This document shows, piece after piece, positions 3,655-50,107 of a DNA stretch of 64,000 nucleotides. The stretch is from Callorhinchus milii. Taxonomy: Eukaryota. Where the stretch lies: assembly GCF_018977255.1 (NCBI RefSeq), contig NW_024704744.1, positions 56,296,001 through 56,360,000 on the forward strand, given 5' to 3'. A program made the translations under genes and the position numbers. The number at the start of each line of letters is the position of its first letter. Positions within the stretch are counted from its first letter, which is position 1. The notes beneath the pieces were generated by a model. It had not been told where the DNA came from. It saw only the letters and a list, made by a program, of their open reading frames with translations, and searched no databases.

Positions 3655-3930
3655 ACTAAGTGGGGAAAGAGCAGGAGTAGGACTGATTGAGTAGCTTTTC
3701 CAAAGAGTCGGCACAGGCAAGATGGGCCGAATGGCCTCCTTCTGTGTTGCAATACTCAAAATGCTTCACGGAACACATTGTAAAGTGTAGTGACTGTGTA
3801 CTTCATAGGTGTAGTGAATGCAGCAGCCAATCTGCACAGAGCAATGTCCCACAAACAGCCATGAAGTGAATGACCAAATTTATTTGGGCGATTGTTACCA
3901 GGACACCAGAGAAACTCCCTTGCTGCATTA
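3655..3930. mobile_element. CR1 3' tail (+) adjoining a Deu-SINE fragment (-)
   Basis: gatgggccgaatggcctccttctgtg CR1 end; gcagccaatctgcacagagcaatgtcccacaaacagc Deu motif. Confidence 0.65.
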
Positions 3931-8927: not shown

Positions 8928-9289
8928 CTGCAGAACAGAAAACGGCTTGATAAAACAACATTGTATATAGAGCAGGAGTCACTTTTCCTTACCAGGAAAG
9001 GAATTTACTGGAGTAACAGGAGTAACGGGCACATTCACGCTGTTGTAACTGGTCCTGTTGTGCTGAACTAACTGGTGAGCCATGTGGTGAGGAGAAGTCA
9101 GGATTGGATTGCATTGTCTCAACACCTGGATGCCGATTTAGGATTTAGGGCCTGGTATTATGTTGACAGGTATCAGTCCAATGTCGAGATCCAAGAATGT
9201 TGTGGCAGGTGAGCATTTAATTAAACCATAAAGCATAGCAAAGGCAAAGAAGACTTGGTTCGTCTTTTGTCAAATGCAAGGTACAAAAA

Positions 9290-9472
9290 AAATAATAATT
9301 TGGTTACTCAATCCACGACCATTTGTGGGACACTGCTATGTACAATTGGCTGCCGCGTTTCGCCCACAAAATATATTGTCAATTCACTTTACAGTATATT
9401 CTGTGAAGCGCTTTGAGGCATCTTGAAGCCCTGATAAGGCGCTATGTCAAATGCAAGGAGTATTATTATTAT
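9290..9472 (+). mobile_element. SINE 3' half
   Basis: tttgtgggacactgctatgtacaattggctgccgcgtttcgcccacaaaa...caaatgcaaggagtattatt. Confidence 0.8.
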
Positions 9473-9792
9473 AGCAACAAAGGAAATTTAGAGTCTGGCA
9501 ATTATTATTTTAATCTCGAGTACATTGACTTGTTCCAATCAAATATTTTGTTCTATTAGGTGATCTCTAGCTTTGCATAGTGTGCGATTGAATAACTGAA
9601 CTTCTGCCATGACGGGTTGCTGAAAAGTTCCACAGGAGTCTCAGTGCCAGATAAATCCACTGACCTGCGTTCCCTTCGATATCACCTTGGAGTGGTTTTG
9701 TTGCAGAAATACGTAAATTAAAAAGAAAACCTGAAGACTTTAATTCGGGTTTATAAGTGTTGTTACATATTGACTTAGTTTTGTGCTGGTAC

Positions 9793-9921
9793 CTGGATGT
9801 ATTCTGTAAGTGTATTGAAGACTTGCTTTGCCACATTGATTGCCTTTGAGAAATTACGCTGCCCTTGTTCGTCAATGACATCTTTCCCAGAGTAGTACCA
9901 ATAGAAATCACTGATCGATTC
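9793..9921 (-). CDS. RYR2: RYR2 exon ~87 (129 nt) [43 protein letters not shown] (Ca2+-site Glu/Gln)
   Basis: cag/GTACCA; peptide match. Confidence 0.95.
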
Positions 9922-10214
9922 CTGTCAACGGAAAATGTTTGATTCACAACCAAGAACATCCAAAATAAACTAATTTAAGAGATATGAGTTACACTGTTCT
10001 CTAGTTTTGTTACAAATTAGTTTTTATTATGGTTAAAGCTTCCCAAGAAATCAAAGAGAATATCAAATGCATCATGTCAGCTATTTTAAATCAAACTATT
10101 TCTTGTTCCTTACCACCGGAGGCATCTGACCCCCCCAGCAATATTCTAACACTGCATTAAACTAGAAAAGAAACTTTAAATATAGGAGCAATCAAAGAAA
10201 ACTGGGTTGAATTA

Positions 10215-10543
10215 CAGAGAAACTGTTTCCTCTAGTAGGGGAATCCAGAACAAGGGGGCATAATCTTAAAATTCGAGCTAGGCCATTTAGGAGTGAAATT
10301 AGGAGGCAGTTTTTCACCGAAAGAGTAATGGAAATCTGGAACTCTCTCCCCCAAAAGGCTGTGGATGCTGGATCCATTCACATTTTCAAGACTGAGATAG
10401 ATAGATATTTGTTAGATCAGGGTATCAAGGGATATGGGCAAGGGCGGGTAATTGGAGTTGAGGTACAGATCAGCCATGATCTATAGAATGGCTGAACAGG
10501 CTCCAAACGATGAATGACCTACTCCTGTTTCTACGTTTCTATG
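10215..10543 (+). mobile_element. CR1 LINE 3' fragment
   Basis: Encodes RTRGHNLKI...FFTERVMEIWNSLPQKAVDA, the CR1 ORF2 C-terminus, plus a 3' UTR ending tttctatg. Confidence 0.85.
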
Positions 10544-11036
10544 AATTCAAAGCATTCAAGAGGAAACTTGAAAATCAAAGTAGTAGTATTAATTTTAGGA
10601 ACAGGACAGAGCTATCTATACGACCCAACCAATCTTTCAAAAAGGAAGAGTTGGAGGTAACCTGTCATTTTTAGGATCATTTACAGAGTAATCCACTGGA
10701 GAAACTCTTATTTAATTTCAAATATAACATCCCAGTCATTCAACCATAAAGCTATATGCTTTTCACAAATAACTAAATGCAGGGTTGGGTTGTATAGAAC
10801 CAAGTGTATCTATAAACATTCAGATAAAGGTTGAAGCTGATTTTGAAAGTTATTTCTTGAAAGTGAAACCAGCATAATTCAGGAAATCAGATGACTGGAT
10901 CAGAAATAGATTCTCAATTGCTTCTTTCCTTGCTTTCTTATAAATGCTTATGAACAATTCTCAAAATTCATCTCAATCAAACCAAACGGTTTCCAATAAA
11001 AGATGCAGATCTTCCCATAAATCAAATCAAGTTTAC

Positions 11037-11125
11037 CTGAACTCTCAAGAGGTAGTCCACGGTGGAGATAATGATATTTACTGTTGTGTTATTGCCTGTT
11101 TGAGTTCGTAGGTAGTTCTGGAAAT
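11037..11125 (-). CDS. RYR2: RYR2 exon ~86 (89 nt) [30 protein letters not shown]
   Basis: aag/GTAAAC; peptide match. Confidence 0.95.
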
Positions 11126-11662
11126 CTTTAAGACAAAGAGGTCAGACTTGAGAGATTGATCAATGGTTCAGAACTATTTAAATGCTTATCTCTGCAATTT
11201 GGTTTAAAAAAAAAGCTTGTATTTTTAACAATTCACTGTTACCCCCAAAACATCTCAAAGCAGCTTGCAGAAATAACTGTCAAGTGCAGTGACTGTTTTA
11301 GTAGGTAAATGCAGTGAAAATGTGTGTCAGTAATATACCAATCTGTGAATGACCAGTGAATTATATCATAAAACATGACAGTTTATGTTAAAATAGTCTG
11401 AAATTAACCGAATTACAACCAAAAAGGTCCCATGAACATTCAAATGATAATACTGTAAATGACTGATTTATCTAGACTGATCACTGCAGAAGATTCTACC
11501 AAATAGTAAAAGTAGGTTCATATCAGAGTCTTTCTCAATACAAAGTGCACAAGTTAAAAGGCGGAAATGATCCAGGTGAAAAAGGGTTAACAGATGATGA
11601 CTTATCAAACGATGCATAAATGATTCCTATCACCATCGGCCTACCTGAGGTTTGTTACACAC

Positions 11663-11743
11663 CTGAGTTGTGGCCTTCACAGAGCAGTTGGAGAAAGCGA
11701 AAGAGATCGCAAGTAAACTCATCGTCCTGCATCACCTTCTCAC
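11663..11743 (-). CDS. RYR2: RYR2 exon ~85 (81 nt) [27 protein letters not shown] (Ca2+-site Glu in LCEGH)
   Basis: cag/GTGTGT; RIH-associated domain motif. Confidence 0.95.
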
Positions 11744-14299
11744 CTGGAAGATGTCAGCGAGAGTGTTAGTACTCACGAGTATGGCCAGAAAGCTGTGTTC
11801 TTCACTAAAGCACATCCAGAACTCTCCTACTTTCCCAATATTTGCTAATCATAGCTACTGCTCTATCGGAAGCCCACAAGGTGCACTTCACAGATAGAGA
11901 ACAAATGTAAAACAGCCACACACAAAATATGCAGACTAAATAGGATGGAAAACAAAATCTAAAAACATTCAATAAAAACACATAAAAAATATTTTAGGAG
12001 TTGACATGGCTGCAACCTTTTTTCATGAATTTTCCTATCATATTTTAAATATGTAATAAACATTCACAGGCTTTTTTTTAAAATGAGTTACAAAATATTT
12101 AATGCTTGTGTAATGCCAGTATACATTAGAGATTGCTTATTGTAATCTTTGGTGAGCCCAGAACATCATTGATGTCATGAGGGCAAAATTGCAGTATTCC
12201 TAAACACATTACACAAGGCCAGTATTCTGTGCGTTACTGCAGCAAGGCCTAATACAAACAACAGACAATCCATGGCCTATAAAGGTGGTGCTAGCCCTTT
12301 TCATGCTGTGTTTGCAGTCAGAGTTGATGTTTGAGTTCTTCAGTGCGTGGACTTTCAGTGCTACTTAACAGGGAAACAATATAGCTAAATAAATATTATA
12401 ATAATAATCCTTGCATTATCCTGTAAAGTGACATCTGAAAGGGCCCAGGCACTTCAAAAGAAATAGTTCCATTTAATGAGAATCCAAGATAGAACCCACC
12501 AGCATTTTCAGTCAACTTTGGGTGTTATTATTATTCAGAAGTATTCTAAAACACATTTTAATGAGGATCCTTAAATAAAGAACAAAACAATTAGGAACAC
12601 CACAAGATTGAGCCCAAATAATACAACAATGCGCCTCTCGTATTGCTTCATTCAGCAAAATAACAAGGCAGCAGAATTTGCAGATAATAATCCCCGACTG
12701 TCCAGCATCTTGGGATGCCCTCCCGAAGTGAAAGGCGCTACACAAATGTAATTTGTTGTTATTGCCTTAATAAGCTCTCTTTGATGCCCAAAGCTGTAAT
12801 TAGAAACTCTTCAATGGGAACAGAGCTGCACATCTTCAGTGGTCTCTTACCTATAGTAATTTGAACAAATATCCAAACAAAATATCTATTTCAGTAGAGA
12901 GGAACAAGCAAGTAATGTGGTTCAAAGACTACCTTAGCTGCTTAATCCTGACCTCCAATCATCGATGTTAAGATGATCTTTACAAATGCCTTCTATACCA
13001 GGAATTGAATTTGGATTTATATTATGCTGCGTTTGGACTGTAACTGGGAGAGAGGACATTCAACAACAAGATTTCATTTAGATGTAACATGTAACATTGT
13101 AACATTCAAGGTTACAAGTGGCCAGTCTCTGAGGGGTGGGAGAAGGGGGCCAGGATCACTCTCCTGCCGGTCTTGGAGTCAGGATTGTCTGAGGCTGGGA
13201 AATGGCCAAAGCGTGGACAGCGTGGAGATCATGCTCCCACTGAACAGAGGAGGTGCAAGTGGTGAGGAGCAACCGTACAAGGCTCCCAATGAGGTAATGA
13301 GTCTCCCCTGCAGCCTGTGGATGATTGTTGGGAGATTGAGGGGATGGAAGAAATTTATTCCACAGCTGAGAACTGTGAATGTGGAGAGACGCAGGTGAGG
13401 GAGCTGACATGCCTTGCTGTGGATTTACGCAACACGCTGTTATCTGATTGGTTAGCATTGGGCCCAACAAAATTGACTCTTTTGCTCAGCAAGAAGTGAC
13501 GTAATCAGCTGTTCCGTCCACAACAGTATTATTTGTTACCAAAATCAAAAAGGATCAGAATACTTAAAGAATAAAACTAGTTTGGAGATATTAGATGAAT
13601 ACCCAATCTCCCAAGTGTGTGACCAAACTGATTTGTTACAGGTGCCACTATCTAAGGTGAAAGCACCCTGTGCACATCTTGTATGCAAATATACTTGTGT
13701 CTCTTGTCTTGCTGCACTGGCCATTTTGCTAATAACTTGTATTATGCTCCTGATAAACCAATTTCTTAATGTTAAGATAAAACCTAGCAGAATTTAAGAA
13801 AGAAAGAGGCAACTAAAGAAATAGAGACAGGTGACAAATGTAGAGAATATGGAAGGACTACATAAAGGTCTTAAGAGGGAAAGGTGACAACAGTACGACT
13901 GATTAGAAAGGAAAATAAATGACAATCTAAAAACCTTGATGCTATCATTTAAATTTGGAAAGATTTAAGAATCAATAAAATATATTGCAGGTTACTGTGA
14001 TTAACTTTAAGCTTCAGTATTTTAATAACATTAACCCTTTAATCACCGACAAATTCTTTATTAATAATCACAGATGGTTTCCAAATTCCAAAACACAACT
14101 ACCAAATTAAATATCGCTTAAACTGAAGGATTTGAATTGGCTTCAAACAGCCTGTCGAGTTTCCGACCTGATCTCAGGTGTGGTAATCTCACAAGAAGTT
14201 GAATAATGTTAGCTCCTGGTTCAACTGATCTCTGCCTTTCAGAATAACCACCCTAACAATTGCCCATTAGAGCAAGTTTTTTTTCTTAAAAAAGTGTCT

Positions 14300-14625
14300 T
14301 TGCCCCCAACTTCTGGAATTCCATCCCCCAGTCACTCCACCTCGCCCCCTCAAGACCCTCCTCTTCAACCATGCCATCGGCCACCCCCTCCCCTCCCTTA
14401 TCCCCCCAACCCCAGCTCAGGTCTGAAATGCTGTACTCTGTCCAGCGCCTTGCGACATCCTCCCGACGTGAAAGGCGTTATACAAATGTAATCTTGTTGT
14501 TGCTGTTGTTGTGTCCTGTCAGCAAACACCTTCTGTGGTAACCCATTCCAGCTGTTTTTTATTCTCTGTGCGAAGAAATATTTTCTGGTAGCTGTCCCTC
14601 CATTTCTTGCTGTACTAGCCAATGG
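14300..14625. mobile_element. L2 3' tail (+, ~14300-14510) next to a CR1 fragment (-)
   Basis: cctcccgacgtgaaaggcgttatacaaatgtaatcttgttgttg tail; KYFFAQRIKNSWNGLPQKV CR1-like peptide. Confidence 0.7.
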
Positions 14626-16225
14626 CATCTTAAATACTCTATAAGGAATTTGGAAAAGCACCTTTCAATTCAGGAGAACGTCTCAAAGGGCTTTGCAGGA
14701 CATACTGTAAAGTGTAGTGACACTGTATCATGTAAACAGATGGGATTCTATTTCTACTGATTATACCTAGTAACCAACACACAATTGTAAGTAGTGGAAT
14801 CTAAATGCCTCGACAGCTTCCTATTGGAGTTCAATTCTAATCTGTGAACCAACATAGTTAAAATGGTAATGCGGACCATGTCAACTCTCCTAAAATATGA
14901 AGACCACTGACAACAGGTTATGGTTGATGAAAAAGCTTAATGGCTTTATGACTTCACATGGGACTATTCAGATGTGTACTGCGGGTGATTTACAGTAAGT
15001 GAAAGAACAAAGTAGAAAAAGAAAAAGTGCAATATGAAGTAGTGAATTTAATTTACTGACTAAATCTTAAATAATATGGATGGAAAAGCATACTGGATTC
15101 AGAAAGAGAGGAAATGGTACCTGCTGTGTAATCTGCAGTTCCTATACAGCACTACAAATACTGCTAGTGTTTGCACTGCAAAATCACTGAGAATAAACAC
15201 TTGTGAAACAAGGACACAATATGATCAAAGGGGGATTTTGAAGATATAAAATCACGGGAGCATTGTTTGGGTGAATGGTTTATACAGTAGCTTTCAGAGG
15301 AGCCCCAAAATGCAACTACTACTTTGAACTAATGCCAATAATAATTCCATTTTGCACATTGTTTATATAATCAAGAGAGTATTTATCCAGTTTGGGGTCT
15401 TCTTGTTAGGACAGCTATTGTTTATAGAATGTAGTGGTCATTGTATTGACTGCCAGAACATTCCCCACTCATTACCAAGTGGCATCCTCAATGATGGGTT
15501 AAAACTTGGGACATTGCAGCTGAGAGTTTTATTGGGAAATAGCTGGCAATGGAGAAATACTGTGCACTGTAAAACATTACTTCATTTCTAAAACCAGTAT
15601 GACAGATTTGAGTTGGATCTTCAACCTAAAGAACCTGCACCAAGAAAGTCAAAACATATTAAAAAAAAACCTACACACAAAGTATGATTTTTGCATCACA
15701 AAATATGTTGGTTGTAAAGGTTAGCAAAATAAAGCAAAGAGTAAAACACACACAGTAAACTCACACAGACATTGTCATCTGCATCACAACAAATAGTCAA
15801 CATCAATGCACGTCAGTTTGTAAAGCAACTGAAAAGTTAAATTAGAATACAAAATTTAATGCTAAAAGTCCCTTAGTTGTTACTTGCACAACGACAGGTG
15901 CAGCCATAAAGCCACATTGAATACACAACAAATACTACAGATAACTGTACACCACAGTTTGGCACATCCAACCACTGCAATACTACGCCACTTAAAGGCT
16001 CACAGTTCTTACATCTAGTGTGCCAGTTACTGTGCAAATCCTGAGAGAGAGGCAAAACAGACATGAAGTTGGCTAAAGGGCTTAACGTTTCTAAAAGCAA
16101 AGTAAGAGGTTTTTTTATTGATTAACAACTATGCACAGAGTCTGTAAGTGCAAAAATTGGCAAGAGTTCAGGACCTGTACAGTGCTGACACAATGTAACA
16201 GAGGAAATGGCAGAGTTATAATTAC

Positions 16226-16243
16226 CGCGCTCATGAGTGATGA
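16226..16243 (-). CDS. RYR2: 18-nt microexon VITHER, positional homolog of the RYR1 ASII exon (VINRQN) and RYR3 LIVRER
   Basis: CTAAC/CTAAT branch candidates, long AG-free pyrimidine tract, ctcctcag|TCATCACTCATGAGCGCG|GTAATT; phase 1-1 matches the flanking exons. Confidence 0.8.
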
Positions 16244-17139
16244 CTGAGGAGGGGGAGACAGAACAATTGAAATTAAAAGAAAAAAAAAGATGAGATTAGG
16301 TAGTTAGGAATTATACTCAACTTCATTCTACATTTTATAAGAAATTGGGTAGGTTGAAAGAGGATAAAACAGAATTATAAAAGTCACGCTTTTTTTAAAA
16401 AAAAACAAGAGATTTTTGCTATGCATCAATCCAAAAAATGGTGCATATTCAACAGCTAAAAGATTCTGTGTTTATTTCAGTATAAAAGCAATGAATTCAT
16501 AATGAACAATTCAACACAGAAACAAATGGGTACAAACACACATATCTATACAGATACAATATCTCACTGCACAGGTACACATGTTTAATACATCCCGGTG
16601 TTGTAAAAGTACAAGAAAAATATATTGATTTAATATTTGATGCTAGCCTAGCATGTGTTTAGTTGATTGTTAGCTGCAACCTGGCAACTGCCAACACATG
16701 TTTAACAGAGCGGGTTTGGGCGAATCGTTTGGCTTTCATAACATACTGAAATATAACAATTGTTCTTAGTAATACAATATATATATATAAAAAATAACAC
16801 TCACATGACAATCAAAGAAGTGACAGTTACACCACAATATATTGTGTGACTGTCACACAATATGAAACTAAATAGACATGGAATGCTTCAAAATTAAAAG
16901 TGGAATAAAAAACATCATAAAGAACAAAGAACAATTTGAGCTTCAGAAATAGACAGTCCAGCAGTATGATTGGCTCATGTCAGAGCAACGTCTCCCTCTC
17001 TGGTGATATTTTACATTTGATTTAAACCACTTTTATAACAGTTTATCCATTTTAAGTCTTTTCCACAAATAATATTTTTCAAAACAGAATGCTGCATAAT
17101 GCCAAAGCCTGAATTAAACATGGGACTTCCAGTAACGAT

Positions 17140-17425
17140 AATCCTTGTAGTTAACATGGCACCTCATCGCAATGTCAAAATGTTTCAATGCACTTTACAT
17201 GATTCTACTGCAAACTGCAGTGACTATTTTTAGGTGAATGTAGCAGTATATTTACATGCAGTAATGTCCCACAAACAGACACAAAAAGTATGACCTTTTA
17301 TCTGGTATCTGGAAGAATGTTGGCCAGAACACTGGGAGAAGCTCTCTTGTCAACTAATGCCATGGGTTCTTTACCATCCATCTGAACAAGCAGACAGCAC
17401 CTTAGTGTAACGTCTCACTGAACCA
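17140..17425 (-). mobile_element. Old Deu-domain SINE fragment
   Basis: gtcccacaaacag, gttggccagaacactgggagaa and gccatgggttcttt motifs. Confidence 0.6.
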
Positions 17426-17639
17426 TGGCTAATTTTGCCTTCTCCTAAACCAAAGAGGCACTGAAGTCTTTTGTAGCTTTTCCAATATTGCCCTGAGATC
17501 ATAATGGAGTGCAGATTTGAATCTATAATGACCTATATAAGTATTTTGCAGGAGATTTCAGTTGTTAGGAATACCATCAGAGGACTGTCATTAATCTCAG
17601 AAAGGTTTACTTCACACGTTTGTTGACTATTCCTCCGTT

Positions 17640-17972
17640 CCTCATTACGGTCTGCTCCACGTCCCCCGCCCCAACCACCCTACCATCGGTGGCCGGACTT
17701 CAGCCTCTCAGCCCCTAGGCTCTGGAACTCCATCCCCCAGTGCCTTTGCCTTGCTTCCTCCCTTTCCTCCTTCAAGGCCGGTCTCAAGACCTTTCTCTTT
17801 GACTGTGCCGTCAGCTCCCCTCTCGACTCTCTACCCCCTCCTCGCTCTCTCCCTTCCCTCCCCTCACCCTGACCATTTCCCCCCTGCTCGGGTCCTGACA
17901 CAACTGTCCAGCGCCTTGGGACGTCCTCCCGACGTGAAAGGCGCTCTATAAATGGAATCTTGTTGTTGTTGT
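17640..17972 (+). mobile_element. L2 LINE 3' fragment
   Basis: ggctctggaactccatccccc...ttcaaggccggtctcaagacctttctcttt...tail tcttgttgttgttg. Confidence 0.85.
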
Positions 17973-18333
17973 ATTCACAATAGTGTCTGCAGATTGATCA
18001 TAACTTGTCACCTCTTTATTGATGCAACTCAGCATTGCATGATCATCAACAGTTTTTCTGTGCAGTTCAAATTGCAAGAACACCCCCAAATATTATCACA
18101 CTTTAAACTTTATACAACAACCTGTCAATATGTGCTGCAATCATTAATGACAAAACAGTATTGCTCTGTGAATATCATATTCAAATAGCAATACTCTTTC
18201 GCCATGAATGATTCTAGCACACATTGGCAGGTTGTTGTATAAGATAGAATACTACTGGTAATTTTTTTTGCCTATAATCAATATACAACACATGGAATGA
18301 GAGTAGAATCGTATATACTACTTCAATGTATAC

Positions 18334-18407
18334 CTGAGCCCTCCTCTGTCACCATGCCGAGTCCTTCTGCTTTGTTCTGTCGTTCAAATGCATTTAGGTC
18401 AAGCACA
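18334..18407 (-). CDS. RYR2: RYR2 exon ~84 (74 nt) [25 protein letters not shown]
   Basis: cag/GTATAC; peptide match. Confidence 0.95.
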
Positions 18408-18659
18408 CTGCAATTGACATAAACAAACAATTTGATTCTTTAGCCTCCTGGAAAAAAAACAGCACGTTGACCAGACTTATGTAGGTGACATTTTGCATGG
18501 CTCTGAATTCCTAGCTACATTACAAATGAATGGCAACACCAATAATTTACATTTATGTAGCACCTTTCACATTGGGAGAATATCTCAAAGCTAATGAAAC
18601 ATAAGAATATAGAATATTTTAAACTGGACCAAGAGTGAATGGTTTGCCCTATGAGTGCA

Positions 18660-19080
18660 AACTGGAGGAAGTGGGACTTTCTCCACTGGAACAAAGTTGA
18701 AGGTTATCCTGATGAGTCTTTAAAATTATGAGGGGTTTTGATAATCAATAGTAAGAAATTATTTCCACTGGCCAGTGAGTCTGTAATTAGAGGGCATCAA
18801 CTTAAAATAGTTGATAAACAAGAGAATTGGGAGACAAGGAGAATTTGTTTCATGCAAAGAGTAGTTAGGATAGGGAATGCCTACCGGGCACAGTGGTTGA
18901 GGCAGAATCCATAATGGTTTTCAAGAGGAAACTAGACAAATACTGTCCCTTAAAAAGAGTCAGCTATAGATGTCGGGGGAAAGGGCAGGTAAATGGGACT
19001 TAAAGGATTGCTATTGAGGCCGCCCATACACACGATGGGCCGAATGGCCTTCTGGCACCATAAATTTCTAACGTTCTATG
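18660..19080 (+). mobile_element. CR1 LINE 3' fragment
   Basis: tttaaaattatgaggggttttgat...agagggcatc...gatgggccgaatggcctt...ttctatg. Confidence 0.75.
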
Positions 19081-19370
19081 GACAGATTCATACGTTGTAT
19101 TATGCCACATTGTCACATTTCCAGAACAAGAAAATGGCAGAGTCCAACTGATTCAGTGTTACAGCCTCCACTCTCGCTCCCCACATCCCCCCACCCCCCC
19201 ATAAAAGATTTTGTTTTGAAACAATTTCATCTGAAGGATAAAGCTGGAATGATAGAGCAGAACTAGAGAGCATTAGTTTTTTTTAAAAATTCTCCAAAGA
19301 TGGTAAGTGGGGAAAAGATTCCCAACTATTAATCACTGCACAGCACTCATAGCTTCAAAAAGACCTGCTA

Positions 19371-19585
19371 AGAATATGCTTAACAACAGGTTTGAAAGAT
19401 GGAGACTGATAACAAATATTGCATGGGACAATGGTTTCTATAGAGACTTTGGGGACAAGGGGATTGATTGAGGTGTGAAAGGGAGATGTATAGAGACCAA
19501 AGGATATGCCTCACAACAGCACTGAAAGATGGAGGTATAGGTGCAAACTGAGAACAAATACTGCATGGGATAATGCTTTCTTACA
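19371..19585. repeat. Imperfect direct repeat, ~130-bp period
   Basis: agaatatgcttaacaacaggtttgaaagatggag...aacaaatattgcatgggacaatggtttct vs aggatatgcctcacaacagcactgaaagatggag...aacaaatactgcatgggataatgctttct. Confidence 0.75.
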
Positions 19586-20203
19586 TTCCCTGTGGAGTGA
19601 CTGAGACAACGACTGAACAGCGGTGATGTAGGATTGACTAATGTATTTGAAAGATTGCTGGTCAGGACACCAAGACATTACCTTGGAATCTTTGATGTCA
19701 ATCTGGAAAGGCTGATGGGATCTCAGTTTAACTTCTCATCCCAAGCACAGCAGCGTCAACAATGCAACGCTCCTCCAGCATTCAACTGTGCTCAAAGACT
19801 CAATACAGGGACCTGAACCAAGACTGTTGAGACCCAGAAGAAAGTGAGCCAGGTTGAGACCTTACCCTCCATTCTCTGTGTTAGGAAACAATTCCTGGTA
19901 TGTACCGCATGTTCTGAAATCTCGCTTCACAATCAACTGGAATCAGACTCAATATTTTTTGCTCTCATTGTACGAGTAAAGCACCAGAGAGCTAGTTTAT
20001 ATTTGAAGCAAGAGACTAGACTCTGAACATGTGGGAAAGCATCAACAGCTGATTAAGTCTGACCAGAAGATTTAGTTACAAGAAATATCAAGCAAGAGGG
20101 ACTAGCTGCAATATTCCCAGATCAGAAATGCATCAATTAGAAAATGATATTAAGGAGGTCTGGAATGACCCTGAAATGGAGGTAAAACAAATGGCATTCT
20201 TAC

Positions 20204-20280
20204 CTGCAAGACTGCATGAGACCAGCAAGACTTTGAAAGAAGCCCACATCCTTCTTCTCCTTGAGATAATCAAGCATTTT
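20204..20280 (-). CDS. RYR2: RYR2 exon ~83 (77 nt) KMLDYLKEKKDVGFFQSLAGLMQSC
   Basis: tag/GTAAGA; peptide match. Confidence 0.95.
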
Positions 20281-21050
20281 CTATAGAACATGAAAACCAG
20301 ACTTCATCCAACGGAATTAATTCCACATGTCAGAGATATAACCTCGAGGCTCACTGTATTTCCATATCTCTGCGATAACCATTCCGAGGAATAATCCACA
20401 ATATGGAGTGTGACCAAAAGAAGGCAGATAGAACCTTGTGGCAACATCTATCATAAGGTTTATATGTCAGCCAGCTTCTTGCATGATAGATTTACCGACT
20501 TCTGAGTTAGCAGGGAGTTGCTGCCGCCACCTCCTATATGCTATGCATGTACAGGAAGAGATGACAGCAGCGAACTGTTTACCAGGAAACAGTTGTGGAT
20601 CAAAGGGCACCCGTGTTATAAACAAATCCACGTTATACCATTTGTTGTTTGCATAAGATCTCAGTCTTCCACTTTGAAGTAATTACATTTTATGCGCATG
20701 TTTAATAAACACTTTGGCAGAGATTTGCGAAGCACATGTATTATACACTACATGTAAACTATAAGTAACATATGCTACAATTAAACCATGTGTATTATAT
20801 GCTAGATGTAAACCATGTACATAGAGGGAATTGAAAGTACTCTGAATTATGAAATTAGCTGAACCTTTTCATTGCTTTTTACATCTTGAAGGGAACCTGT
20901 AATTGACTCTGTAATACATATATATTTACACATGGTGCACAATAGACCCAAACTCAAAAATACAACATGAAGAAAAGTCATTTATCAACTATGTGACTTT
21001 CAGTTGCACACATTTCCAGCAATTCCAGTCTTCAATGTAAATAGATTTAC

Positions 21051-21685: not shown

Positions 21686-24600
21686 ACAACAACATCAAAA
21701 TTACATTTGTATAGCGCCTTTCATGTCGGGAGAATGTCCCAAGGCGCTGGAAAAACAGTTACAGACCCGAGCTGAGGATCACCATGGGGGAGAGGGGAGG
21801 GCGGAGGGGAAGCAGGGAAATCGAAAGCACGGTCAAAGAGGAGGGTTTTGAGGTGGGTCTTGAAGGCAGCGAGGGAAGGAGCAAGACAGAGGGACTGCGG
21901 GATGGAGTTCTTGAGGGTGGGTGCAGAGTGGCAGAAGGCCCGCCCGCGGGGCGAGCGAGGTGGGGGACGTGAAGCAGGCCGGAGCCCGCTGAGCGCAGGG
22001 AGCGAACAGGGTGGTAGAGGGTTAGGAGGTCGGAGAGGTAAAGGGGAGCAAGACCGTGGAGGGCTTTGAAGGTGAGGACCAGGATCTTGAACTGTATCCT
22101 CTGTGTAATGGGAAGCCAGTGGAGTTGGGGAGGCCAACAAGCAGTGAGTTTGGATAGTTGAGCCTTGATGTAATGAAGGCATGTATGAGGGTTTCAGCAG
22201 CCTGTGGTGTGAGACAGTGTCGGAGCCTGGCGACGTTGCAGATGTGGGGGAAGGCAGAGTGGGTCATGGCGCAGATGTGGGGTAGAAAGGATAGTTGATG
22301 GTCAAACAAGACGCCAAGGTTCCGGACTGGCTTAGTAAGGTGGAGTGTGCAACCATGGATGGTGATCTTGTCAGCACCTGAGGTCAGGAGGCACTGACAG
22401 GAGCCAATCAGGAGAGCCTCGGTCTTGTTGACACTCAACTCAAGAAAATTAGCTCTCATCCAGGACTTGATGTCTGACAGACATTCTGTCAGGACAGCAG
22501 TAGTCCTGGAGTCAAGGGTGGAGGCAGAGAGGTAGAGTCGGGTGTCATCTGCATACATGTGGAAATTGACCCCATGTCTATGGATGATGTCACCAAGAGG
22601 GAGCATATAGATGTTGAAGAGGAGGGGACCAAGGACAGAGCCCTGAGGAACACCACACGAGACGGTCGGGGGCTAGACGAGAAGCCGTTCGAGGAGATGA
22701 AGTGCAGGCGGTGTGAGAGGTACGATCTGAACCAATCAAGGACAGCACCGTGGAGGTTGAGATGAGAGGAGAGGCGGTGGATGAGGATAGAGCAGTCAAT
22801 GGTGTTTGAAGAAGCAGAGAGGTCAAGGAGGACGAGGAGGCAGAGGGAGCCCTGGTTGCAGATTGACAGAATGTCATTTGTCACTTTGACAAGGGCGGTT
22901 TCTGTGCTGTGGGCGGCACGGAAGCCCAATTGGGGTTCGAGAAGGGAGTGATGGGAGAGGAAGGAGCAAAGTAACAACTCATTCCAGGACCTTGGAGAGG
23001 ATAATAATAATCCTTGCATTTGATATAGCGCTTTTCACGTCGGGAGGACATCCCAAAGCGCTTCATGGGGAGGTTGGAGATAGGGTGGTAGTTAGGGAGT
23101 AGAGAAGGGTCCAGGGAGGGTTTTTTTAAGGATAGGAATCATGACAGCAGTTTTTAATGGGGCGGGAACAGTACCAGAGGACACGGAGAGATTAACGATG
23201 TCAGTGAGTAGAGGGGCAAGGAGGTGGAGCTGGGAGGGAAGGAGAGGGGTAGGGATGGGGTCGAGGGAGCAGGTTTCATATGGCTTATGGTGGTGATGAG
23301 AGAGGAGGGGTAGACAGGTTCAAAGGTGTGGAGGGAGGGGTGGGTAGGGGCCGGGGTGGAGGAGGAGATGGGGAGGGGGTAGCAGTTGCAATGGCAGAGG
23401 CAGCTGAGTGGATTCCCTTGATTTGGGATTTGAAGAAGTCCAGCATCACCTCGTATTTGGCATTTCAGGTGAGGATGGGTGAGGGTGGGCGGAGGAGCTG
23501 TGATGGAGAAGAGGAGTCTGGGGTTGTCCTTAGCCTCCAAAATTGTCTTGGAGTAGAACGACGATTTAGCGGAGGCGAGGGCGGAGCATTAGGATTTGAC
23601 ATGGTCCAGTCAAATCTGCCAGTGGTCAGTTAGGTTTGATTTAAGCCAGGTGCGTTCAGCGGAATGCGCCTGGGCTTTAAGGGAGCGGAGGTGTCTGGTG
23701 TATCAAGGTGATTTGCGTGAGTTGGAGACGGTTCTGGAAAAGAGGGGAGCAAGGGAATCAAGAGTGGAGGAGAGGGAGCTGTGGAGAAGGTTGACCGAGG
23801 AGAATAGGTCATTGCGGGAGGACGCCCAGAGGAGAAGGAGTTCAGATGACTCCAAGGCAGCCGAGAGGGAGGGGAGGGAGATTTTTTTTCCAGAGGCGGT
23901 ATGAGTTGGAGGTGGGTTGGGTGGTGGTGAGGAGAGGGATTGAGGAGTTAAGGGCGATGAAGTGATGGTCCAATATCACTTTGTCGATGATGGTAAGGTC
24001 CAAGACGGTGAGGCCCCGAGTGATCACCAGGTCGAGGGGGTGACAGCGAATGTGGGTGGCGGAGTGGATGTGGAGGGAGAGATTGAGGGAGAAGATAAGG
24101 GAGGAAAAGTCAGCAGAGGTAGAGCAGGAGGGGATGAAGTGAAGGTTGAAATTGCCAAGGATGAGGAGGCGTTCGGAGCAGAGGAAGAGGGAAGATAGGA
24201 GGGTGGAGATGTCGGGGATGAAGGTGGGGGAGGGCTTGCGGGGGGCGGTAGATCAGGAGAATTTTGAGGAAAAGGTTGGAGTGGTGATAGAGGGCAAGGT
24301 GCTTAAAGGAAGGGAAAGTTCCAGAGGAGTAAGGGGATAGGCCGAGCGGGGACTGGGAGATGAGAGCCACACCGCCACCACCGCGGTTTGGCCGAGGGGT
24401 GTGATGGAAGGTATAACCAGGTAGTGTGGCCTCAGTCAGGGGGAAGGTGTCACCTGGAGTGATCCAGGTTTCAGTGAGGGTGAGGATGGCGATGTGTTCA
24501 TCGACGATGAGATCTTGGAGGTGTCTGTTTTGTTGGAGAGGGAACGGATATTTTGTAGACCGATAAGGAGGGGACAGTTGGTGGTGGAAAATGGGGCGCA

Positions 24601-24830
24601 AGGCTGGGGAGGGGGGCGGGGACTGATACGGGGGTTAGGGATGTGGATCAGGAAGGAGTGGTTGGCCCCTGCATTCGGGGACCAGTGAGCGTTGTAGCGA
24701 GAGTAGGGGATCAGTCAGTCAGAGTGGCCTCTGTTAAGACAGCCAACGGCCACTCCCACAGAGGATTCGCAGGTTGGAGCAAAGGGAGGCTGTGGGATGG
24801 TCGAACAGGGATAGGAGTCGGGGAGGGCTA
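21686..24830 (-). mobile_element. L2-clade LINE, near-complete but frameshifted ORF2 (APE endonuclease + reverse transcriptase) with 3' tail
   Basis: LTLTETWI...GYTFHHTPRPNRGGGGVAL (APE); [39 protein letters not shown] (RT); [19 protein letters not shown]; (TTG)n-like tail at ~21690. Confidence 0.93.
23001..23065 (-). mobile_element. Short SINE/L2-type 3' tail nested inside the L2 ORF2
   Basis: ataataataatccttgcatttgatatagcgcttttcacgtcgggaggacatcccaaagcgcttca interrupts the peptide YHPISNLP|LSKVLE. Confidence 0.85.
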
Positions 24831-37156: not shown

Positions 37157-38005
37157 AACAACAACAAAATTACATTTTTTTAAAGCGCCTTTCATATCAG
37201 GAGGGCGTCCCAAGGCGCTGGATAGACAGAGTTACGGACCCGAGGGTCCTGGGTGGGGGGAGGGCAGAGGGGGAAGCAAGGAGATCGAAAGCATGGTCGA
37301 AGAGGAGGGTCTTCAGGTGGGTCTTGAAGGTGGCAAGGGAGGGGGCAAGAGGGAGGAACTGCGGGATGGAGTTCCAGAGAGTTGGTGCAGAGTGGCGGAA
37401 GGCCCACCTGCCGATAGTGGGACAAGCAAGGCGGGGGACGTGAAGCAGGCCGGAGCCCGCTGAGCGGAGGGAGCGAACAGGGTGTTAGGGGGATAGGAGG
37501 TCGGAGAGGTAGAGGGGAGCAAGACCGTGGAGGACTTTGAAGGTGAGGACCAGGATCTTGAACTGTATACTCTGTGTGATAGGAAGTCAGTGGAGTTGGG
37601 TGAGGATGGGAGTGATAGGGTCGCGGAGCCTAGTGCGGGAGAGGACACAGGCTGCAGAGTTCTGGATGATCTGCAGCCTGTGGAGGGAGGAGTTGGGGAG
37701 GCCGACAAGCACTGAGTTTGCATAGTCGAGCCTCGATGTAATGAAGGCATGTATGAGGGTTTCAGCGGCCTGCGGTGTGAGACAGTGGTGGAGCCGGGCG
37801 ATGGTACAGAGGTGGGGGAAGGCAGAACGGGTCATGGCGCAGATGTGGGGTAGAAAAGATAGTTGAGGGTCAAACAAGACGCCAAGGTTCTGGACTGGCT
37901 TAGTAAGGTGGAGTGTGCAACCATGGACGGTGATGCTGTCAGCACCTGAGGTGTGGAGGCGCTGACGGGAGCCAATCAGGAGGGCCTCGGTCTTGTTGAC
38001 GTTCA
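37157..38005 (-). mobile_element. 5'-truncated L2 LINE, same family as 21686-24830
   Basis: ORF 37587-38006 NKTEALLIG...NLGVLFD...[15 protein letters not shown], near-identical to 22022-22440. Confidence 0.92.
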
Positions 38006-38090
38006 AATGAAGAAATAAGCTTCAACTTGTTGAATGTAATGACCTTCTCCAATCCTATGAATATATATTCTCAAAGTAAAGAACACTAAC

Positions 38091-38225
38091 CTGTTCCAAG
38101 TGAAAAACTACATTGGAAATATCTAGCACTCGCTCCACTGTTTTCCCAGGATCGGACGAGTCTTCACTTCTGTTCGGCAGGTCTTTATATAGAGCCATCT
38201 GCCACCTAATGGCAGGATCTTCCAA
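38091..38225 (-). CDS. RYR2: RYR2 exon ~74 (135 nt) LEDPAIRWQMALYKDLPNRSEDSSDPGKTVERVLDISNVVFHLEQ
   Basis: cag/GTTAGT; peptide match. Confidence 0.95.
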
Positions 38226-38945
38226 CTGCAGGTTGGGATTCGTATTAGTTATCAGTCAACAGGATCCACAAGATACCATAAATTACTTATCAGATGACAT
38301 AATAAATGCTGACTTTTAGCTCTACTCTGCTTAAAGTTGCACCTCTAAATCGACAACCAATACATGTTTTCAGCCTTGCACTAACTCACCCTTTTGAGGT
38401 TAATGTCCAGGCATCTCAGAAGTTTGTACAATTTAAATCTGGGATTGTAGATCAGAATGGTAGGAGGGAATAGATAGCTTTGCTTTTGAATTAAGGGCAC
38501 TGAAAATTGCTGATGACATTATGTACTACTGTCTACAATGTAGAGTGGTGAATTCCTTGGAATATCTGTTCAGACTGTAATTTACTCCCATCTATCCACC
38601 TCTTCGATCATGCTTATAGTCACCTCACTCTCTCTCCAGGTTAGTGTCAAGCTCGACCACTGTTAAGTGCTCCAAGATGCTGCCCCACATGAAGGACACT
38701 GTATGAATGCAAGTTGTTGTTGTTTACTTCAAGGATTCAGGTGACATTTTAGGAGTTAAGTGAATTTGTTTTAATGTTACTTTCAATAAAACTTTTAATA
38801 AGTGTTAATGATTTAAGACTTTACAGAGAATGATACGTCACAGAAACAGACCAATCGGCCCAACTTGCCTGTGTCGGAATTTGATTATAGCAAGATATAT
38901 TCTTTTTTCATGCATTTATTCATTCAACAAAGCAGCCACAGGAAT

Positions 38946-39365
38946 CAACAACAACAAAATTACATTTGTATAGCGTCTTTTATGTCGGGAGGACATCCCA
39001 AGGCGCTGGATAATCAGTGTTTCGGACCCGAGCTGGGGGTCGGGATCAGGGAGGGTGGAGGGTGACCGAAGGCACAGTCGAAGAGAAGGGTCTTGAGACA
39101 TGTCTTGAAGACGGCAAGGGAGGGGACGAGGTGGAGGGACTGCGGGGTGGAGTTCCAGAGGATGGGGACAGCGTGGCTGAAGACCCGCCCACCAATGGTG
39201 GGGTGGGCCAGGAAGGGTATGTGAAGCATGCTGGAGCCCGCTGAGTGGAAGGTGCGGGCAGGTTGGTCGGGGGTTAGGCGGTCGCAGAGGTAGGGGGCAG
39301 CAAGGCAATGGAGGTGAGGACCAGGATCTTCAACTGTATGCTCTGTGTGATGGGAAGCCAGTGAA
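38946..39365 (-). mobile_element. L2 3' fragment
   Basis: GGRVFSHAVPILWNSTP...FKTCLKTLLF peptide plus tail. Confidence 0.85.
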
Positions 39366-48820: not shown

Positions 48821-49330
48821 CAACAACAATTTGCATTTGTATAGCACCTTTCACATCAGGAGGACGTCCCAAAGCACTGGACAATCAGTGTTTCAGACCC
48901 AAACTGGGGATCTGGGAAGGTGGAGGGCATGGGGGGGGGGGGGGGGAAGGAGGGTGACCGAAGGCATGGTCAAACAGGAGGGTCTTGAGACGGATCTTGA
49001 AGGAGGCAAGGGTGGAGGCGAGGCAGAGGGACTGCAGGATGGAGTTCCAGAGGGTTGCAGAGTGACCACCCGATAATGGTGGAGCGGGTGAGCCGGGGAC
49101 ACGAAGCAGGCTGGAGCCCACTGAGCAGGCAGGTTGGTAAGGGGTTAAAAGGTCGCAGAGATATGGGGGAGCAAGGTTGTGGAGGGCTTTGAAGGTGAGG
49201 ACCAAGATCTTGAACTGTATTCTCTGTGTGATGGGAAGCGAGTGGAGTCGGGGGAGGATGCGGGTGATAGGGTGGCGAAGCCTGGTGCTGGAGAGGACTC
49301 GGGCTGCAGAGCTCTGGATGATCTGGAGTC
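48821..49330 (-). mobile_element. L2 3' fragment ending 28 nt before the exon 65 acceptor
   Basis: ORF 48885-49205 [15 protein letters not shown]...LWNSI...FKIRLKTLLF. Confidence 0.88.
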
Positions 49331-50107
49331 AGGTGAAGTACAGGCAGCCTGAGGATCATGGACCTTTAATAAATGCTCTTGTTACAATTATTTAAAAATC
49401 ATTTTCTTTTATGAAATAAAAGCTTCCATACATGCTCTGATTGGATGCGGGTTCGCACCGCACAATGTTGTGATTTCTTCACTGAAAAGGGGAATCTTGA
49501 AACTCAAATCTTCTTTTATGTGGGTTTCCATTTATAGAGCCAGGCTGCAGGGTTCCTCTTCCACACCTTAATCTTGTGCATCTTTCCACAATGGATGCAA
49601 ATTGTGCCAAATTTCAAATGGGGTTTCTTACTAAAGACAAAGACTTGCAGATGGGGATTCCTTTTGTTATCTGGCAGGAAGACCCACAGGTGTGCAGTGC
49701 CTCTGCTCTGACTTGACTTACAGATACAGTCCCTACACTCTATATTAAATACTATGAAATGTTTTGAGACGTCTCTACAGCATGATAAGGCACTATATCA
49801 AATGCAAGGCATCATCATTATTATTCTTACAATAATACTCTCAGAACACAGGTGGACATGACTTCCAGTATTTCTGGTTACTGGAAGGAATTTCCAATTG
49901 TGAGTAGGATTCCTTAGCAGGAATTTCCATTTCCACAAATGTTTGTCACTACACTTCACAGTATGAAGTACTTTGAGACTTTGAAGCACTTTGAGACATC
50001 GCAATGACGTGATAAGGTGTTATATCAAATGCAAGGAGTATTCTTATTTGAAATTGCTCCCTTTTAGCACCCAATGAATTGATGAAAGAGTGCACACAAC
50101 TGATTAC

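What the first reader, a model, noticed from the sequence alone, without database searches (positions are those of the whole stretch)
16226..16243. 18-nt ASII-type microexon retained in an RYR2 gene
Seen: in the 6.6-kb intron between ...GMVTEEGS and GEKVMQDD..., the minus strand reads cctaactacctaatctca-(U-rich, AG-free)-ctccccctcctcag|TCATCACTCATGAGCGCG|gtaatt. It is phase 1-1 and adds VITHER. Known: RYR1 has an alternatively spliced 18-nt exon here (ASII, VINRQN), RYR3 has LIVRER, and canonical mammalian RYR2 has no insert. Inference: the microexon predates the RYR1/2/3 duplications and is kept, probably as a regulated exon, in this lineage's RYR2 just upstream of the Ca2+-activation site. 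The surrounding ~1.5 kb looks repeat-poor, consistent with constraint.
Basis: partly seen in the sequence, partly recalled or inferred. Interest (0 to 1): 0.8.

Follow-up and report, generated by a model that had tools for sequence, protein, structure and literature searches.

The report
Ancient optional 18-base exon in RYR2
The gene for the heart-and-brain calcium-release channel RYR2 holds a tiny 18-base exon that public gene models from sharks to birds and a macaque already include as an optional piece, so it is a real, very old and little-studied feature rather than a discovery, and its six residues likely fine-tune a flexible loop of the channel.

Summary
Observation confirmed: an 18-nt, phase 1-1 exon (16243-16226, minus strand) adding VITHER to RYR2, with the strongest acceptor among 80 candidates in its 6,590-nt intron. 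It is not special to this lineage. The same peptide stands in public RYR2 isoform models of sharks and rays (6 of 14), coelacanth, gar, teleosts, birds (44 of 65, search biased to inclusion) and one macaque (1 of 41 mammalian models). Several species have models with and without it, so it is a cassette exon. This genome's RYR1 (VIKRES) and RYR3 (VIVREH) carry an 18-nt phase 1-1 exon in the same intron, which supports an origin before the RYR1/2/3 duplications; it aligns exactly with RYR1 ASII (3865-3870). In this organism only the skipped junction was seen (2 of 2 covering runs); inclusion was not shown. The insert falls in a low-confidence loop leading into the helix that ends at E3848. Tissue and function are untested. 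I found no paper on it, and no solved RYR2 sequence (0 of 13) contains it. This scan found the same exon earlier on other DNA (e1-7856246). Verdict: known from annotation, under-studied.

The parts
16226..16243 (-). 18-nt phase 1-1 cassette microexon, adds VITHER to RYR2
   Evidence: same peptide in public RYR2 isoforms
16244..16310 (-). Acceptor region: two branch-point-like CTAAY motifs (candidate branch A at 16304 and 16296, i.e. -61 and -53), U/C-rich tract, 71-nt AG-free zone, CAG; no UGC within 180 nt
   Evidence: branch points inferred from motif only; mostly unpaired in the centroid fold, z -0.30
16220..16225 (-). Donor GTAATT
18334..18407 (-). Upstream exon (ends ...GMVTEEGS + G)
   Evidence: its 3' end joined to the downstream exon in contigs of X2 and X3
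11663..11743 (-). Downstream exon (GEKVMQDD...CEGHNS); encodes the residue equivalent to human E3848
14729..17130 (.). Repeat-poor intronic stretch around the microexon
   Evidence: no self-match 14729-17311; repeat hits only from about 17130; low repeat depth

Best explanation
This is an optional 18-base exon of RYR2, shared with RYR1 and RYR3, that is skipped in the transcripts seen here and is likely included in a subset of tissues or stages, where its six residues would lengthen a flexible loop and so likely tune gating or partner binding. Shown: the exon and its splice signals; matching exons in this genome's RYR1 and RYR3; with-and-without isoform models in many vertebrates; the skip junction in this organism. 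Predicted: the insert lies in a 22-residue loop between two helices of the central domain, leading into the helix that ends at the E3848-equivalent. Inferred: the ancestral vertebrate RYR had the exon before the duplications that gave RYR1/2/3. Inferred: the distant branch point and long pyrimidine tract make room for exon definition. Inferred, about 35%: the twin CTAAY motifs at the branch point let QKI compete with SF1, so heart skips the exon and QKI-poor cells such as neurons include it. Inferred: the effect on the channel is modest and allosteric, not direct Ca2+ coordination.
For: Best acceptor of 80 candidates. 18-nt phase 1-1 exons starting TCAT in the same intron of this genome's RYR1 (C68:43530-43513, VIKRES) and RYR3 (C9:9885518-9885501, VIVREH); each is the top peptide match among 66 and 13 candidates. 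A six-residue insert is present in 48 of 120 mostly ray-finned-fish RYR2 models (39 exactly VITHER), 70 skip, 2 other. VITHER in 6 of 14 shark and ray models spanning the junction, coelacanth, 44 of 65 bird models and macaque isoform X18. Both forms occur within one species for bamboo shark, sawfish, bichir, reedfish, bowfin and crab-eating macaque. E5 and R6 are invariant in 109 of 109 six-residue inserts (redundant isoforms counted, searches seeded with inclusion forms). It aligns on RYR1 3865-3870, the ASII residues named in PMC7437583 (passages). Loop position: AlphaFold2 residues 122-143, pLDDT below 50 at 126-136. Skip junction 18334>11743 in X2 and X3, two studies.
Against: No inclusion junction was seen in this organism. 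Of five runs laid only X2 and X3 covered the downstream exon usably; both skip, and contigs drop minor isoforms. Only 1 of 41 named mammalian models has it. The MicroExonator mouse table lists three other Ryr2 microexons but not this one (PMC7821500 supplement 2). None of 9 non-avian reptile or axolotl models has it. RefSeq X-isoforms are computed models, and I could not see their read support. The QKI idea rests on two CTAAY cores, with no full ACTAAY, and these may be plain branch points. Tissue of inclusion and functional effect were not tested.
Confidence: 0.8

Rival explanations
1. The exon is functional and regulated in fishes and birds but vestigial or nearly silent in mammals. Mammalian RYR2 uses other optional exons nearby (the 24-nt exon, exon 75, the 33-nt exon).
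For: 1 of 41 mammalian models, although one search was built so that any mammalian inclusion form would rank near the top. Absent from the mouse microexon table. 0 of 13 solved RYR2 sequences.
Against: The macaque peptide is letter-for-letter VITHER, which a long-dead 18-mer would not keep (inference). Members hidden in large clusters were mostly not seen (14 of 510 listed besides the representative). The mouse table is embryonic only.
Confidence: 0.35
2. It is a classical SRRM3/4-driven neural microexon.
For: 18 nt, frame-preserving, highly conserved. Candidate branch points at -53 and -61 compare with medians of 45-47 nt for neural microexons and 34 nt for the comparison class (PMC12871342 section 20). 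RYR2 is expressed in brain (PMC3989282 passage).
Against: The nearest upstream UGC is at -182. No ryr gene name was found in 12 supplementary files of a zebrafish neural-microexon paper (files may use event ids, so inconclusive). The RYR1 counterpart is a muscle-maturation exon. Non-UGC neural microexons exist, so neural inclusion is not excluded.
Confidence: 0.15
3. It is a developmental switch in muscle or heart, like RYR1 ASII (skipped in immature, included in mature tissue), under CELF/MBNL-type control.
For: Same ancestral exon as ASII, whose switch from P0 to P21 is reported in PMC3852932 (passages). UG-rich and YGCY motifs lie downstream (common motifs, not tested against chance).
Against: All 13 solved RYR2 sequences, the canonical forms, skip it. 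No significant intronic similarity with the RYR1 or RYR3 flanks (about 9-63% of random stretches score as well downstream).
Confidence: 0.2
4. It is a chance pseudo-exon or a dead relic in this genome.
For: Only the skip junction was observed here.
Against: Exact peptide shared with sharks, birds and macaque. About 3e-7 expected by chance. Intact splice signals and the best acceptor in the intron.
Confidence: 0.03

Closest known systems
Annotated RYR2 isoforms carrying VITHER (e.g. Chiloscyllium punctatum XP_072436665.1, Latimeria XP_014340342.1, Lepisosteus XP_015218325.1, Gallus XP_025004814.1, Macaca fascicularis XP_045250623.1)
   Same: Same six residues at the same junction
   Different: None at protein level. 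These are computed gene models, and I found no paper that studies the exon.
RYR1 ASII (exon 83, Val3865-Asn3870)
   Same: Same position, 18 nt, phase 1-1. The mouse exon in PMC7821500 supplement 2 starts with the same TCATC (assigned to Ryr1 by its translation and by recall). Optional.
   Different: ASII is included in adult skeletal muscle and in the solved RYR1 sequences, and is mis-spliced in myotonic dystrophy and SMA models. The RYR2 exon is skipped in canonical RYR2, and its peptide varies less among species than the RYR1 inserts seen (IIRREN, IISREN, NMKLER, NLNLDR).
RYR3 six-residue optional exon (LIVRER)
   Same: Same junction; with-and-without models; VIVREH exon in this genome; the solved mink RYR3 sequence lacks it
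   Different: Different peptide. Its literature was not retrievable (one search found nothing).
Described RYR2 splice variants: 24-nt exon (VTGSQRSK, RBM20-repressed), exon 75 (QKI-dependent), exon 4
   Same: Short in-frame optional exons in the same third of RYR2 (24-nt exon, exon 75), with tissue-dependent use
   Different: Different exons at other positions. None of the passages read mentions the 18-nt exon.

Membership tests
ASII-type RYR microexon (paralogue of RYR1 exon 83) | Same position in the protein as RYR1 Val3865-Asn3870 | tested here: met
   query V maps to RYR1 3865; between S3825 and G3826 of human RYR2
ASII-type RYR microexon (paralogue of RYR1 exon 83) | 18 nt, phase 1-1, in the orthologous intron | tested here: met
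   RYR1, RYR2, RYR3 of this genome; mouse 18-nt exon
ASII-type RYR microexon (paralogue of RYR1 exon 83) | Related peptide (hydrophobic-I-x-R/H-E-x) | tested here: met
   VITHER, VIKRES, VIVREH in one genome
ASII-type RYR microexon (paralogue of RYR1 exon 83) | Alternatively spliced | tested here: inconclusive
   Both forms in public models of several species; in this organism only skipping was seen
ASII-type RYR microexon (paralogue of RYR1 exon 83) | Immature-to-adult muscle switch | not testable with these tools
   Runs are contigs without tissue labels
SRRM3/4-dependent neural microexon | 3-27 nt, frame-preserving, conserved | tested here: met
SRRM3/4-dependent neural microexon | Extended branch point to 3' splice site distance | tested here: met
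   Motif-predicted branch A at -53 or -61, 71-nt AG-free zone; reference medians
SRRM3/4-dependent neural microexon | UGC motif close upstream of the 3' splice site | tested here: not met
   Nearest TGC at -182
SRRM3/4-dependent neural microexon | Neuron-specific inclusion lost without SRRM3/4 | not testable with these tools
   Not in the mouse MicroExonator table; no tissue-resolved reads available
RYR2 orthologue | Closer to RYR2 than to RYR1 or RYR3, with separate RYR1 and RYR3 loci in the genome | tested here: met

The most novel reading that the evidence does not exclude
Human RYR2 still carries this exon and uses it in a specific cell type (probably neurons, by release from QKI repression). 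That would give an uncharacterised RyR2 isoform with a six-residue insert 23 residues before the Ca2+-activation glutamate. It is absent from every solved RYR2 sequence, and arrhythmia or neurological gene panels built on the canonical transcript would not cover the exon or its splice sites.
Probability: 0.3. Interest if true: 0.6.

Novelty: already known. Interest (0 to 1): 0.3.

Why it matters
The exon itself is already in public gene models, so finding it in one more genome adds little. This window adds a clean one-genome demonstration that RYR1, RYR2 and RYR3 share one ancestral optional exon. The open point is that an RYR2 insert kept unchanged from sharks to birds and a primate appears to have no functional study and no structure. 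If it is used in human heart or neurons, it is a cheap, testable modifier of a major disease channel.

Tried and rejected
Run search: no listed holder is on record as RNA; spliced joints show X2 and X3 hold spliced transcripts. The first read-laying on 9000-21000 was swamped by repeats and showed no informative joint. In one search, X4 gave only two 31-nt intronic pieces and X6 nothing; lack of cover is no evidence. Shared intronic elements among the three paralogues' flanks: an apparent common CTGTTACA downstream in RYR1 and RYR2 is not beyond chance (464 of 5000 random stretches, 102 of 942 GTRA sites), so rejected. No RNA structure signal around the exon (z -0.30). The 33-nt tetrapod insert has no counterpart in this intron (best ungapped scores 17-18 against self scores 58-62). 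Literature: searches gave no paper on this RYR2 exon. One search for the peptide word was swamped by an unrelated species name (363 papers, 20 seen) and is uninformative. Three papers were not held (including Futatsugi 1995), one supplement was unreadable, and one MicroExonator file is too large; these could mention the exon. Motif searches in the zebrafish MicroExonator table found no match but covered only some codon choices, and one search showed only the first two hits per motif. The fold search only confirmed the RyR fold.

Full report
Observation. The minus strand holds an 18-nt exon candidate at 16243..16226, between an exon ending at 18334 and one starting at 11743. Skipping reads [16 protein letters not shown] and inclusion reads [22 protein letters not shown], in frame. 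Among 80 in-frame YAG..GTR candidates of 3-51 nt in the 6,590-nt intron it has the most pyrimidine-rich acceptor (0.82) and a 71-nt AG-free zone. Two branch-like CTAAY motifs lie at -64 and -56. The stretch is single-copy and is read without differences in an unspliced contig of run X1. The surroundings are repeat-poor from about 14,730 to 17,130; other gaps of 1.4-2.1 kb exist in the window, so this is weak evidence.

Gene identity. The large exon downstream scores 662 bits against solved RYR2, 526 against RYR3 and 441 against RYR1, and its best named database hits are RYR2. The genome has three matches to the downstream exon. The other two read as RYR1 (C68, 100% identity to a tortoise RYR1 exon) and RYR3 (C9, 93% to a RYR3 exon). 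The organism was not determined by any search.

Conservation. Among the 120 best long relatives of a ricefish RYR2 model (nearly all ray-finned fishes), 48 carry a six-residue insert at this junction (39 exactly VITHER), 70 skip it and 2 are other. A search built to favour inclusion forms outside teleosts returned VITHER in bamboo shark, coelacanth, many birds and Macaca fascicularis isoform X18. Cluster look-ups added catshark, sawfish, two stingrays, bowfin, bichir and reedfish. Tallies of models spanning the junction: sharks and rays 6 of 14, birds 44 of 65 (biased to inclusion), named mammals 1 of 41, non-avian reptiles and axolotl 0 of 9. These count isoform models, not species, and only part of large clusters was seen. 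Several species have models with and without the insert, so it is a cassette exon. A composition-based estimate for a chance match of the full pattern is 3e-7 per intron.

Origin. In this genome the orthologous introns of RYR1 and RYR3 each hold an 18-nt phase 1-1 exon beginning TCAT, with a long AG-free zone (98 and 68 nt) and a GTAAAT donor. They encode VIKRES and VIVREH, each the best peptide match among 66 and 13 candidates. The RYR2 insert aligns on rabbit RYR1 3865-3870, the residues given for ASII in PMC7437583 (passages). One ancestral optional exon before the RYR1/2/3 duplications is the simplest reading (inference). The intronic flanks of the three copies are not more alike than chance.

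Transcripts. Thirteen runs were listed, none on record as RNA. On 10700-12150, one contig each of X2 and X3 (two studies) splices 11663 to 11125 and continues from the downstream exon straight into the upstream exon, i.e. the skip form; X4 and X6 did not cover the exon. X1 had no depth on that exon. Inclusion in this organism is thus not shown. Contigs drop minor forms, so it is not excluded either.

Protein. The junction is S3825|G3826 in human RYR2, 23 residues before E3848 (the Ca2+-ligand role of E3848 is recalled, not from a call). It lies just before the RIH-associated domain. All 13 distinct solved RYR2 sequences and the one RYR3 lack the insert, while full-length RYR1 sequences have it. 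An AlphaFold2 model of 300 residues of the shark inclusion form (29-row alignment, mean pLDDT 77) puts VITHER (131-136) in a loop between helices 110-121 and 144-158, with pLDDT below 50 at 126-136; the glutamate follows at 159. The model matches RyR structures (TM 0.8). The insert is therefore predicted to lengthen a flexible loop, not to touch Ca2+ directly.

Regulation (inferred). A distant branch point and long pyrimidine tract are typical of microexons (PMC12871342, abstract and section 20). No UGC lies within 180 nt upstream, against classical SRRM4 control. The twin CTAAY cores could be QKI/SF1 competition sites; QKI binds RYR2 transcripts and controls exon 75 in cardiomyocytes (bioRxiv 10.1101/2025.09.04.674271, passages). 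This is a hypothesis. The RYR1 counterpart switches on with muscle maturation (PMC3852932 passages; PMC5840707 passage).

Literature. Described RYR2 variants in the passages read are exons 4 and 75 (PMC12109991) and the RBM20-dependent 24-nt exon (PMC8228627, PMC9691496). The MicroExonator mouse table lists three Ryr2 microexons (24, 15 and 21 nt) and an 18-nt exon that reads as Ryr1 ASII, but not this exon (PMC7821500 supplement 2; searches and part 21). Ten searches gave no paper on it. The library lacks most subscription papers, three papers were not held and some supplements were unreadable.

Verdict. Novelty: already known (from annotation). Interest 0.3. The remaining value lies in its unexamined use and function in mammals.

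Noticed in passing
Same RYR2 junction in other species: P0291-P0296 (Old World monkeys), P0364 (loggerhead turtle), P0354 (axolotl): A second, 11-residue insert (ASHFESHRLRT; APHFGSHRLRT in axolotl) is conserved across tetrapod models, probably a separate 33-nt cassette exon. It was never seen together with VITHER in one model and has no counterpart in this window's intron.
   Followed up: partly
L005 = G000:C68:43530-43513 and L007 = G000:C9:9885518-9885501 (minus strands): RYR1 (VIKRES) and RYR3 (VIVREH) microexons of this genome; both acceptors end in TTGATCC-R-CA(A)G.
   Followed up: yes
window 21700-24700, 37200-39300, 48900-49400: Broken LINE-like copies (endonuclease- and reverse-transcriptase-like ORF pieces, judged by eye) inside RYR2 introns; repeats also dominate RNA-like runs.
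   Followed up: no
P0361 (skink RYR2 model): Insert ASGFST at the same junction resembles the intron end read in snake models (…IDFSTG, P0005, P0008), so it is probably an alternative acceptor 18 nt upstream of the downstream exon, not this microexon.
   Followed up: no
P0033, P0065 (teleost RYR3-like models): The insert is five residues (IHTQR), so the microexon has shrunk to 15 nt in some teleost RYR3 genes.
   Followed up: no
window 13043-12999 (minus): Second-ranked acceptor candidate in the intron (45 nt, open frame, 82-nt AG-free zone); no matching insert in any fetched RYR2 protein, probably chance.
   Followed up: partly
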